A stretch of 64,000 nucleotides of DNA from positions 15,004,001 to 15,068,000 of the forward strand of contig OX597832.1 of assembly GCA_951406725.2 (NCBI GenBank), written 5' to 3'. Both the position numbers and the translations under genes were made by a program. Below the pieces are notes generated by a model that searched no databases, was not told where the DNA came from, and saw only the letters and a program-made list of their open reading frames with translations. This DNA is from Octopus vulgaris (lineage: Eukaryota). Positions 3,107 to 61,337 of the stretch are shown here, in pieces. Positions within the stretch are counted from its first letter, which is position 1. Each line of letters opens with the position of its first letter.

Positions 3107-3316
3107 TCGCCATGTTGATTCGCTAGCCTCTGCACGCATTTTTTTGTCTCCTTGTTTCTTTCTGTGGTTCTTTTCTGTGTATCTTTCTGTTGAAGAGCGT
3201 AGGCTCGAAACGTAAAAGACTTGTTTTATTTATATTCCTGAGCGCCATACTAATACAATTGTTTGTTTGTATTCCACCTGCCTTCATGTTTTGTTTATTT
3301 CCATAAAGATCCCCGT
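3107..3316 (+). mobile_element. Short non-coding repeat (PLE pLTR-like) carrying a minimal hammerhead-like motif
   Basis: Flanked by (TA)n on both sides; related copies at ~10590-10780, ~11150-11350 and ~21420-21607 (minus). Confidence 0.65.
3182..3219 (+). ncRNA. Minimal type I hammerhead-like motif with variant core (CUGUUGA)
   Basis: TCTTT-CTGTTGA-A-GAGC gtag GCTC-GAAA-CG-TA-AAAGA: stem I TCTTT/AAAGA, stem II GAGC/GCTC, palindromic ACGT as stem III; A6 replaced by U. Confidence 0.55.
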
Positions 3317-3973
3317 TATATATATATATATATATATATATATATATATATATGTGTGTGTGTGTGTGTGTGTGTGCTACACAAAGAAGTTCGTATCATT
3401 GTAAGGGCTCTGCTACAGGGAAGGGGTGACACAGATAAGTTTGTAGTCCCTTGAGCGAAGACGGAAGAGGAAGGCAGTAACACATATCTGGAAGTTCCTT
3501 GTAGAAATTGTAAGAAATTTGGGCATTGAAGGCTACATATATGCCAGTGTGATTCGCCACTGCACAGTGCTAAATTTCCAAAATAATACTGTCGTGTTTC
3601 AGGAGCTGTTACTACAATGACTGCGTTTAGATGGCCCACAGCATTTTAGTATTCTCCCAAAGAACCTGGGACACGTAAACAGGAAGGGATGTAGTTCGTT
3701 TTAAACTAAACTGGACATCTTACTGTTGAGAGTCCCAGATGAACCTACTTCACGGCAGCGGGCGCAAATGAGGGCATGGACATCAAACCCCTTAATCATC
3801 AAGTTTCACATATCAGAGGAGGCTCTGAACAATAGCAATGCAGCAGAGACGTTGTGTACTAACATGGCTGCATTTTAGCTTATACAGATGTAATAAAAAA
3901 ACAACAGAAGGATATACATACATACATACATACACACACACACACAAACACACATATATATATATATATATAT

Positions 3974-4126
3974 GAAAGAGTACAGCAGGGGCACCATCCC
4001 CTGTCGGAGCCTCGTGGAGCTTTTAGGTGGTTTCGCTCAATAAACACTCACAACGCCCGGTCTGGGAATCGAAACCGCGATCCTGCGGCCGCAAGTCCGC
4101 TGCCCTAACCACTAGGCCATTGCGCC
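3974..4126 (-). mobile_element. SINE family B (tRNA-derived)
   Basis: Reverse complement GGCGCAATGGCCTAGTGGTTAGGGCAGCGGAC...GGTTTCGATTCCC has box A/box B; six copies in the window. Confidence 0.9.
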
Positions 4127-4301
4127 ACCACACACACACACACACACACACACACACACACACACACACACACATATACATATATATATATATATATATG
4201 TATATATATATATATACATATATATGTATATAATTATAATTAGAACAGCTTAGAAAGCATGGACGTGCTCGAGTCAAGCCCGAGACGCTAGACAAGTACT
4301 A

Positions 4302-5051
4302 GAGATACAATAAGGAAGTTCAGCTCAGGCAGACAATTACTGCATAAGTATAAAGGCATTTAATACGATAGAATTCTCTATAACGTATATCAATACATTC
4401 AGAATATAAAGATACACAAATATAAATATATATATATATATATATATATATATATATATATATATATATATATGGATATTAAAAATATTCAAGGACAAAT
4501 AAATATGTAGATATAGAAATATAATGGAGCATAGATTAAACAAAATATAGATAAACATATAGATGAGAACAATGAAATATACAAACTCTCTTATTTAATA
4601 AATCCCAAATAAATTATGGTATAGAAATAAAAGATGTTTAAAAAGAATTTTTGGTATGATATTTAAAGGAAATGAAGTATTCCGACGTCAGTTTCTAGAT
4701 TTCATTGAAAGAGTACATATGAATCATACAATTACTTCCAAGTAATGCCTCCGTCATCAGTGAAAAAGAATAGAAAAGTGTTTGCGCTAGAAATGTATTA
4801 AATGGTTTAATCCCATTTTTAAAAGTAATGTCTTTCTCTATTTCATTATTCTTATCTATATTTTCATCTATATTTTTATCTCTACTCTCTTACATTTATA
4901 TATCTATACATTCTAGATATTTATATTCTGAATGTATTGCTATATATATTATAGATAATTATATCATATTAATTCTGTATATACACTCTATACGCTATAC
5001 AAAAATCTACTAATTGTAGTCTGTCTGAGTTCAACTTCTACTCTGTATCTC
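4302..5051. mobile_element. Degenerate inverted-repeat element with a central minus-strand hammerhead-like motif
   Basis: Left arm ~4302-4590 (interrupted by (TA)n) is reverse-complementary to ~4835-5051 (CAATACATTCAGAATATAAA / TTTATATTCTGAATGTATTG). Minus strand 4680-4765 reads CTGATGA...GAAACTGACGTC. Confidence 0.6.
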
Positions 5052-60157: not shown

Positions 60158-60235
60158 GCGGCTGAAGAAGGCCACAGACATACATTATGCATTGTTATAA
60201 ATCTGTCTAATAAAGGCCCAAAACATATGTACCGC
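60158..60235 (+). ncRNA. Hammerhead-like motif (probably inactivated) in a PLE pLTR-like region ~59400-60342
   Basis: GCGG-CTGAAGA-A-GGCC...GGCC-C-AAAA-CATATG-TA-CCGC: stem I GCGG/CCGC, palindromic CATATG stem III, GAAA changed to AAAA. Confidence 0.6.
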
Positions 60236-61183
60236 TGAATCCTTGGCATCATGTTTTTATTTTGATCAATTTACTCCACCACCTACACCACTAAACGGTA
60301 TACACAGGTGCTTATAATTATCAAGTACTCACCCCGAATTTCTATATATATCTATTTATGTATATATCTGTCTATCCCCCTCTCCATACCTATCTCCCAC
60401 TCACTTTATGTATATATATATATATATATATATATATATATATATATATATGTATGTATGTATATGTGTGTATATATAAGAGAGTCTGTGTGTGTGAGTT
60501 CGCGCGCACTCATATTTTCGTAATGCACGCGGAAACGGAGTTGCTGACTTTGGCCTATGGGATATCAAAAACTTTCAGAAGTTTTTCGGCGAACAAATAT
60601 ACTTTATTTCCATTTAAATATTTTCTACGTTATCGCAACAGCCATACTTAACATTTAGAGGGGCGTTATACCAGTCATAATACACATAGGTACTGACTCG
60701 GTTTTTTTATTCTTATTGCCAGTTAATGGATTAGTTACTCCACTAAAAGATGTGTAGAGCAAGCGTTTTCCTTTACCAGTTTTTTAAACTCCTATGTCAA
60801 ACACTTTGCTCAAGATGTTAACCAATTGTTCAAATGTTCGCTATTGTTCATGTTGCCATTTTTTTTTTTGTCAAATAATTATTTCATCATATTGCTGCAA
60901 TGTCTTTAATGACGCGTCTCGCTACTTCCACTTATTTTGAAGTTACGTTCCAGATTTGGGATTTCTCCGAGATCTGCTCCAGACGAGTAAGTGAGTGTGT
61001 GTATGTGTGTATGTGTGTTTTTTAAATACTAACTTATGTTATTTTTTATATACATACAAATACGAATTATATGTATATACATATATATATATATATATAT
61101 ATATATATATATATATATATATATATATATATATATATATATATATATATAAATGTAATATGCGACAATTATTCGGTAGCCAT

Positions 61184-61244
61184 GATAAAATTCCGAATTT
61201 CGGATGCCCGGGTAGAAAACCACGCCACTATCTCTTCAGTTATC
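61184..61244 (-). ncRNA. Type I hammerhead-like motif (minus strand)
   Basis: GATAA-CTGAAGA-GAT...ATCC-GAA-ATT cgg AAT-T-TTATC. Confidence 0.6.
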
Positions 61245-61276
61245 CGGCCATCGGAGAAAATGCTATCCGATTCCCG

Positions 61277-61337
61277 GGTAACTGAAGAGATGGCGGCGTG
61301 GATATCCACATAGGCATGCGAAACACGGTGTTTTATC
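61277..61337 (+). ncRNA. Type I hammerhead-like motif (plus strand)
   Basis: GGTAA-CTGAAGA-GATG...CATGC-GAA-ACA cgg TGT-T-TTATC. Confidence 0.6.

What the first reader, a model, noticed from the sequence alone, without database searches (positions are those of the whole stretch)
3182..61337. Window-wide enrichment of hammerhead-like motifs in several unrelated small elements
Seen: motifs at 3182, 4680 (-), 10653, 14489, 21523 (-), 27237 (-), 27747, 56650 (-), 60158, 61184 (-) and 61277. Stem sequences differ, but the layout is the same type I pattern, with recurrent palindromic stem III (ACGT, CAATTG, CATATG, CAGCTG). Several motifs are decayed. Inference: this lineage hosts a diverse, very abundant population of ribozyme-bearing PLE satellites. 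PLE hammerheads are known in general; I cannot say whether these families have been described.
Basis: partly seen in the sequence, partly recalled or inferred. Interest (0 to 1): 0.7.

Follow-up and report, generated by a model that had tools for sequence, protein, structure and literature searches.

The report
Penelope retroelement ends carrying hammerhead motifs
Seven of the eleven listed hammerhead (self-cutting RNA) motifs hold up as parts of four unrelated repeat families, three of them very abundant, and they are likely broken-off ends of Penelope-type jumping genes, a kind of element already described in many animals.

Summary
Partly confirmed; a known kind. My widest type I descriptor finds 6 motifs with at most 1.5 deviations, against 0.38 in 100 shuffles. 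All 6 are named sites, but they are 4 insertions, because two are inverted pairs. 10653 is supported by homology to 3182. 14489 and 21523 are plausible remnants; 4680 and 56650 are unsupported. Public contigs laid on three families give depths about 14,000-26,000 times unique flank (rough, not a copy number). In other copies the damaged G12 at 60220 reads G in over 99.9% of depth, so that family's core is intact. The layout matches published Penelope pLTR insertions: extra base after A9, palindromic helix III, inverted partner, one-sided tail, (TA)n ends (PMC4209133, PMC8557442). An octopus Penelope-like hammerhead is already listed (Hydra-1_Obim); none of these motifs matched it. No tandem array was found, so 'satellite' is unsupported. 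No Penelope ORF was found, so membership is inferred. Cutting is untested; Dfam and Repbase were unavailable. The scan has noted this kind before on other pieces of this genome.

The parts
3108..3316 (+). Family A copy 1, about 210 nt between two (TA)n runs; minimal type I hammerhead at 3182-3219 (C3 3187, U at core position 6, extra A, 4-bp helix II, helix III ACGT, predicted cut after 3214)
10612..10783 (+). Family A copy 2; decayed hammerhead (C3 10658, U at position 6, G12 changed)
   Evidence: 71% over 142 nt to copy 1, E 1e-14; 2 deviations
11244..11336 (+).
27207..27513 (-). Family B left arm, ends in (TA)n, no tail; perfect hammerhead at 27237-27327 (C3 27321, predicted cut at 27243)
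27561..27972 (+). Family B right arm (97.7% to left arm over 307 nt) plus about 105 nt of one-sided tail; perfect hammerhead at 27747-27837 (C3 27753, 7-bp helix II, helix III ACAATTGT, predicted cut after 27831)
59990..60385 (+). Family C single copy (bounds approximate, from depth); hammerhead at 60158-60235 (C3 60162, helix III ACATATGT); this copy has A at G12 (60220), other copies G
61152..61255 (-). Family D left arm, ends in (TA)n; hammerhead at 61184-61243 (C3 61239) with a 1-nt-loop helix III
61266..61399 (+). Family D right arm (82.7% to left arm over 104 nt) plus a one-sided tail of at least 30 nt; hammerhead at 61278-61337 (C3 61282, predicted cut after 61332)
14489..14534 (+). Plausible decayed hammerhead (C3 changed, 7-bp helix II, imperfect palindrome, 3-bp helix I); not above background on its own
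21518..21552 (-). Possible remnant resembling family A by eye (canonical CUGACGA, GAAA short of one A, no helix I); no BLAST or nhmmer link to family A at E 0.5
4675..4765 (-). Named site 4680: core words present between the arms of an old fold-back, helices not demonstrable; unsupported
56640..56740 (-). Named site 56650: GAAA plus palindrome half only, in an old fold-back 56496-56950 (69% between arms); unsupported

Best explanation
The supported motifs sit in short, non-coding repeat copies from four unrelated families, and these are likely the truncated 3' ends (pLTRs) of Penelope-like retroelements or of their non-coding passengers, left behind at high density. Shown: the motifs, their excess over shuffles, the repeat nature of families B, C and D, an intact core in most other copies of family C, inverted pairing with a one-sided tail in B and D, ends at (TA)n. 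Inferred: a Penelope reverse transcriptase/GIY-YIG protein nicks (TA)n DNA and copies the RNA from its 3' end, usually stopping after a few hundred bases, sometimes adding an inverted second copy; the hammerhead lies near that end, so it is over-represented among stumps. Predicted from literature: the self-complementary helix III lets two RNAs fold a dimer that cuts weakly, processing the element's transcript. Once inserted the copies decay; in a read-through transcript the inverted pairs are predicted to pair arm to arm and bury the ribozyme.
For: 6 motifs at <=1.5 deviations against 0.38. Extra base between A9 and 10.1, G10.1-C11.1 and palindromic helix III are the traits listed for PLE hammerheads in PMC4209133, which also reports most motifs as single truncated elements and opposite-strand pairs 100-700 bp apart (here 432 and 43 bp). 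Inverted copy plus one-sided tail: PMC8557442, PMC3846280 and families B, D. Depth 14,000-26,000 times unique flank in 8 of 8 run-position pairs. 60220 reads G in 99.95-99.99% of depth in 3 of 3 DNA runs; 61318 reads C, restoring G10.1-C11.1, in 97-99%; 61325 and 61329, partners in helix III, both differ from this copy in 89-99%, keeping the pair. Depth falls upstream of the family B motif (X1 334,707, 28,281, 7,560), as 5' truncation predicts. Contigs run into (TA)n after 27860 and 61377. The 1-nt-loop helix III and (TA)n target of family D match Hydra-clade rows in Files S1 and S2. Predicted homodimers are 5.5-12.9 kcal/mol below two monomers for 6 of 6 motifs folded.
Against: No RT or GIY-YIG: 0 of 150 translated fragments sent (of 523 listed) hit such a Pfam family, and two frames upstream of family B gave nothing in the Atlas. 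No full-length partner was obtained (no genome held; two metagenome scans empty). The upstream depth fall is not monotonic in X3 (301,811, 25,608, 43,254). Families A and C show no inverted partner here. The dimer minimum-energy folds show an open core with helix I, II and III only for 60162; the others adopt other pairings, with no shuffled control. No cleavage data.
Confidence: 0.78

Rival explanations
1. They are monomeric relics of non-LTR retrozymes: small non-coding units that are transcribed as tandem multimers, cut to unit length, circularised and re-inserted. This overlaps with the best reading, since such units are proposed to derive from PLE pLTRs.
For: No coding trace; units of 200-400 nt; retrozyme families often occur as monomers and relate to pLTRs (10.64898/2026.07.22.740005); contigs of runs guessed to be RNA cover the families, though such runs may hold DNA.
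Against: No tandem unit in the window; no unit-length head-to-tail joint among the joints shown (15 of 70, 3 of 3 listed); the motifs are the minimal PLE type, whereas PMC7229834 ties retrozymes to canonical type I motifs; family B continues at least 255 nt further upstream in one contig.
Confidence: 0.14
2. The fold-backs are miniature inverted-repeat DNA transposons that happen to carry the motif in their arms.
For: Many fold-backs in the window lack hammerheads, and DNA transposon remains are present (DDE_1 at 55347-55631).
Against: One-sided tails; variable junctions between the arms among other copies (partly alignment drop-outs); families A and C are single-armed.
Confidence: 0.03
3. The motifs are chance matches in AT-rich repeat DNA.
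For: Rfam finds none; at 4 or more deviations the count equals background; this reading is adequate for 4680 and 56650 and cannot be excluded for 14489 and 21523.
Against: 0 of 100 shuffles reach 6 at <=1.5 deviations; other copies restore G12 and keep helix pairs.
Confidence: 0.02
4. The host keeps these ribozymes to process its own transcripts.
For: The two family B cores are perfect.
Against: 9 of 11 named sites are damaged or unsupported; the perfect pair is young (97.7% between arms) and predicted to be buried in arm-to-arm pairing; no host gene was identified in the window.
Confidence: 0.03

Closest known systems
Minimal type I hammerheads in pLTRs of metazoan Penelope-like elements (Cervera and De la Pena 2014, PMC4209133; parts 1-2 of 4 of the text read)
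   Same: Type I order, extra base after A9, palindromic helix III, many heterogeneous families per genome, mostly single truncated copies, opposite-strand pairs.
   Different: Families B and C have 49-60-nt helix II arms and 8-nt palindromes; no cephalopod is named in the parts read; implied numbers here are higher than the 2,000-9,000 motifs per genome reported, though counted differently.
Hydra clade of PLEs, including Hydra-1_Obim of Octopus bimaculoides (Craig et al. 2021, PMC8557442; passages, supplement searches and part 2 of 59 of the supplement)
   Same: (TA)n target, inverted truncated copy with tail, hammerhead with extra bases beside helix II and a 1-nt loop in helix III, as in family D.
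   Different: The Hydra-1_Obim hammerhead is not in the window (0 matches at up to 3 mismatches); four short motifs of families A, B, C and site 56650 were not found in the supplement text (line breaks could hide them); no ORF here.
Animal non-LTR retrozymes (PMC7229834, passages; bioRxiv 10.64898/2026.07.22.740005, abstract and part 1 of 2 of Results)
   Same: Short, non-coding, hammerhead-bearing, likely moved by PLE enzymes.
   Different: Defined by tandem repeats and circular RNA; none shown here.

Membership tests
PLE-type minimal hammerhead | CUGANGA and GAAA core with NUH site in type I order | tested here: met
   Perfect in 27321, 27753, 61239, 61282; one change in 3187 and 60162; G12 is the majority state for family C
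PLE-type minimal hammerhead | Short self-complementary helix III and extra base at 9/10.1 | tested here: met
   Palindrome in families A, B, C; 1-nt loop in D; extra base in A and C, not in B
PLE-type minimal hammerhead | Self-cleavage, as a dimer | not testable with these tools
   Only contigs were available; folding is a prediction
Penelope-like elements (EN+) | RT plus GIY-YIG ORF upstream of the pLTR | tested here: inconclusive
   0 of 150 fragments hit; Atlas blank; stumps of this size are not expected to hold the ORF and no full-length copy could be fetched
Penelope-like elements (EN+) | Inverted 5'-truncated copy with one-sided tail | tested here: met
   Families B and D; not seen for A and C
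Penelope-like elements (EN+) | Direct partial-tandem pLTR | tested here: not met
   No direct repeat of a hammerhead-bearing end in tandem; expected to be absent from single stumps, so it lowers membership only slightly
Hydra clade | (TA)n insertion preference | tested here: met
   8 of 10 element ends within 15 nt of a TA run against 9% of random positions (ends set by me, partly by eye); contig loose ends
Hydra clade | RT phylogeny | not testable with these tools
   No ORF obtained
Non-LTR retrozyme / satellite | Head-to-tail tandem units | tested here: not met
   window only
Non-LTR retrozyme / satellite | Circular RNA | not testable with these tools
   No raw RNA reads listed
Annotated Dfam/Repbase cephalopod Penelope families | Sequence match to a library consensus | not testable with these tools
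   No such library among the tools

The most novel reading that the evidence does not exclude
This genome carries one of the densest hammerhead populations known: three of the four families in this one window already imply some 50,000 or more copies, with intact cores as the majority state where tested, so the whole genome could hold over 100,000 loci in undescribed families. These include a family whose normal core has U at position 6, and inverted insertions whose two arms were copied from two different subfamily RNAs, which would tie ribozyme dimer formation to template switching.
Probability: 0.3. Interest if true: 0.45.

Novelty: new member of a known kind. Interest (0 to 1): 0.24.

Why it matters
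As a class this is known: thousands of such motifs per animal genome were reported in 2014, and an octopus example is tabulated in 2021. What remains is quantitative and descriptive: apparently uncatalogued families at very high copy number give deep natural alignments in which core variants, helix III changes and the role of the hammerhead in Penelope replication (still open according to PMC8557442) can be read out by counting copies that begin at, or span, the predicted cut.

Tried and rejected
Rfam at two thresholds: no hammerhead. Own genome: not held. Two exact-pattern scans of metagenome contigs for families B and A: 0 loci each. Pfam on 150 of 523 translated fragments: only DDE_1, a sub-threshold Tc5 HTH and a sub-threshold Bor match. 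ESM Atlas on two frames upstream of the family B motif: best scores 0.79, uninformative. An apparent G-L-N ending in one of those frames looked like a GIY-YIG end (motif recalled, from no call), but the majority letters at 27497-27504 in other copies differ there, so I dropped it and ran no large protein search. No RNA holder listed; runs guessed to be RNA were laid as contigs only and say nothing on expression or cutting. Scan for non-circularly permuted hammerheads, a lead from earlier notes: 0 at score >=12 against 0.35 in shuffles; 4 low-scoring against 1.56 (4 of 100 shuffles reach 4), not followed up. Look-alike search of earlier findings by sequence for families A and B: nothing; by words for a U6 variant: nothing. 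Joints between the arms of family D looked like variable truncation near the cut site, but some hold diverged hammerhead letters between the sides (table 5c), so I do not use their positions. Lunse et al. on PLE hammerhead dimers (PMC5785218) is not held; seen only as a reference and through the review PMC6765202. Literature searches for an octopus hammerhead survey returned only PMC8557442 as relevant to hammerheads; most subscription papers are not searched.

Full report
Setting. The window is AT-rich (GC 0.23-0.44 per 2 kb) and full of microsatellites (112 TRF rows), with SINE-like repeats and many fold-backs (44 self-matches). No genome is held and organism labels are coded. That it is an octopus rests on earlier scan notes for the same genome and on my recollection of such sequence; I did not verify it.

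Observation. Rfam gives no hammerhead, so I wrote descriptors. The strict one finds two perfect type I motifs, C3 at 27321(-) and 27753(+), against a mean of 0.03 in 40 shuffles; with one core mismatch it finds 5 against 1.98. A deviation-counting version finds 4 at <=1.5 against 0.30. After reading File S2 of PMC8557442 I allowed odd-length helix III and extra bases on both sides of helix II, and added the swapped G3-C8 core named in earlier notes; this finds 6 at <=1.5 against 0.38 in 100 shuffles (max 3) and 0 in the reversed window. These later descriptors were written with the sites in view. All 6 are named sites. 10653 has 2 deviations and is homologous to 3182. 14489 (3 deviations), 21523, 4680 and 56650 do not rise above background; the first two look like remnants by eye, the last two I cannot support. 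So 7 of 11 sites stand, in 5 insertions and 4 families with no cross-family similarity at E 0.5. A third, partial copy of family A lies at 11244-11336.

Other copies. Contigs of public runs laid on 26500-29500 (4 runs) and 59900-61500 (4 runs) show summed depths of 190,000-876,000 at chosen positions in families B, C and D against 13-48 on unique flank, a ratio of 14,000-26,000 in 8 of 8 run-position pairs. The tool warns that this is no copy number; I use it only as an order of magnitude. The test of decay is clear for family C: 60220 is position G12, A in the window, G in 99.95-99.99% of depth in 3 of 3 DNA runs. In family D, 61318 (position 11.1) reads C in 97-99%, restoring the G10.1-C11.1 pair, and the helix III partners 61325 and 61329 both differ from the window copy in 89-99%, so the pair is kept by a double change. 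No core position of family B is among the 40 differences shown, but 60 more were not shown, 26 were not shown.

Anatomy. Family B is an inverted pair, 97.7% identical over 307 nt, motifs facing outward, left end in (TA)n, right arm extended by about 105 nt that is also repetitive. Depth drops upstream of the motif (X1 334,707, 28,281, 7,560; X3 301,811, 25,608, 43,254), and 11 X3 contigs run into (TA)n after 27860. Family D is a smaller, older pair (82.7% over 104 nt) with a tail on the right arm only; 36-59 contigs per DNA run enter (TA)n after 61377. Families A and C are single stumps. 8 of 10 ends that I set lie within 15 nt of a TA run, against 9% of random positions (partly circular). There is no tandem array and no RT or GIY-YIG trace in 150 of 523 fragments or in two Atlas queries.

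Mechanism. Shown: motifs, repeat nature, intact majority core in C, inverted layout with tail, TA ends. Inferred from PMC8557442 and PMC3846280 (passages): a Penelope-type enzyme copies RNA from its 3' end into (TA)n, truncates early and often adds an inverted copy, so that hammerhead-bearing ends pile up. Predicted from PMC4209133 and the review PMC6765202: the short self-complementary helix III works only in a dimer, and weakly. My folds give dimers below two monomers for 6 of 6 motifs, but the expected three-helix form only for 60162, with no control; folded whole, both inverted elements pair arm to arm across the core. All supported copies hold sequence on both sides of the predicted cut, so their templates were uncut or re-joined (inference). 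Family A has U at core position 6 in both copies that keep that strand; PMC3088659 reports low activity for a natural A6C variant (passages); whether U6 is the family state is untested.

Comparison. PMC4209133 already reports thousands of heterogeneous minimal hammerheads per genome (about 2,000 plus 1,300 in Schistosoma, 4,000 in coelacanth, 9,000 in Xenopus), mostly single, some as opposite-strand pairs 100-700 bp apart. PMC8557442 lists Hydra-1_Obim from Octopus bimaculoides with a hammerhead and (TA)n preference; that motif is absent here, but family D has the same helix III design. PMC8967140 counts Penelope among abundant coleoid repeat families and never uses the word ribozyme (passages). 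Retrozymes (PMC7229834 passages; bioRxiv 10.64898/2026.07.22.740005 abstract and Results part 1) are tandem and circular, which is not shown here. Four searches found no survey of octopus hammerheads; supplements of the preprint are closed, those of PMC4209133 were not opened, and Dfam and Repbase could not be checked, so families may be on record there.

Verdict. Real enrichment, smaller than listed; works like, and probably is, Penelope pLTR debris; new members of a known kind, noted repeatedly by this scan elsewhere in the genome (814 notes fit the word hammerhead). Interest 0.24.

Noticed in passing
   Followed up: yes
window 3190 and 10661 (+): Both family A copies with a 5' core strand have U at core position 6 instead of A; could be a family-wide variant.
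   Followed up: partly
window 61152-61369: The two arms of family D differ at four helix III positions, yet each arm keeps full pairing; hard to get by drift after insertion, so the arms may come from two subfamilies, or from palindrome-correcting mutation.
   Followed up: partly
window 54526-55876 (+): Remains of a Tc5/pogo-type DNA transposase (DDE_1 E 6e-13; sub-threshold HTH_Tnp_Tc5).
   Followed up: no
window 2578-2815, 5534-5773, 14675-15091, 15406-15911, 18771-19304, 37848-38437: Six further fold-back elements without a recognisable hammerhead; some may be MITEs, some inverted retroelement ends truncated past the motif.
   Followed up: no
window 3974-4126, 16795-16906, 50512-50621, 51555-51711, 54041-54201, 57229-57394; and 1092-1498, 49325-49754, 62123-62532: Two dispersed SINE-like families (6 and 3 copies, 80-96% identical).
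   Followed up: no
window 246-599 (-): 117-aa frame that resembles the C-terminal zinc-finger region of a non-LTR retrotransposon (recalled resemblance; no Pfam hit).
   Followed up: no
window 26600-26800, 28217-28418, 29227-29327, 60548-60979: Further repeated stretches shown by contig depth, not identified.
   Followed up: no
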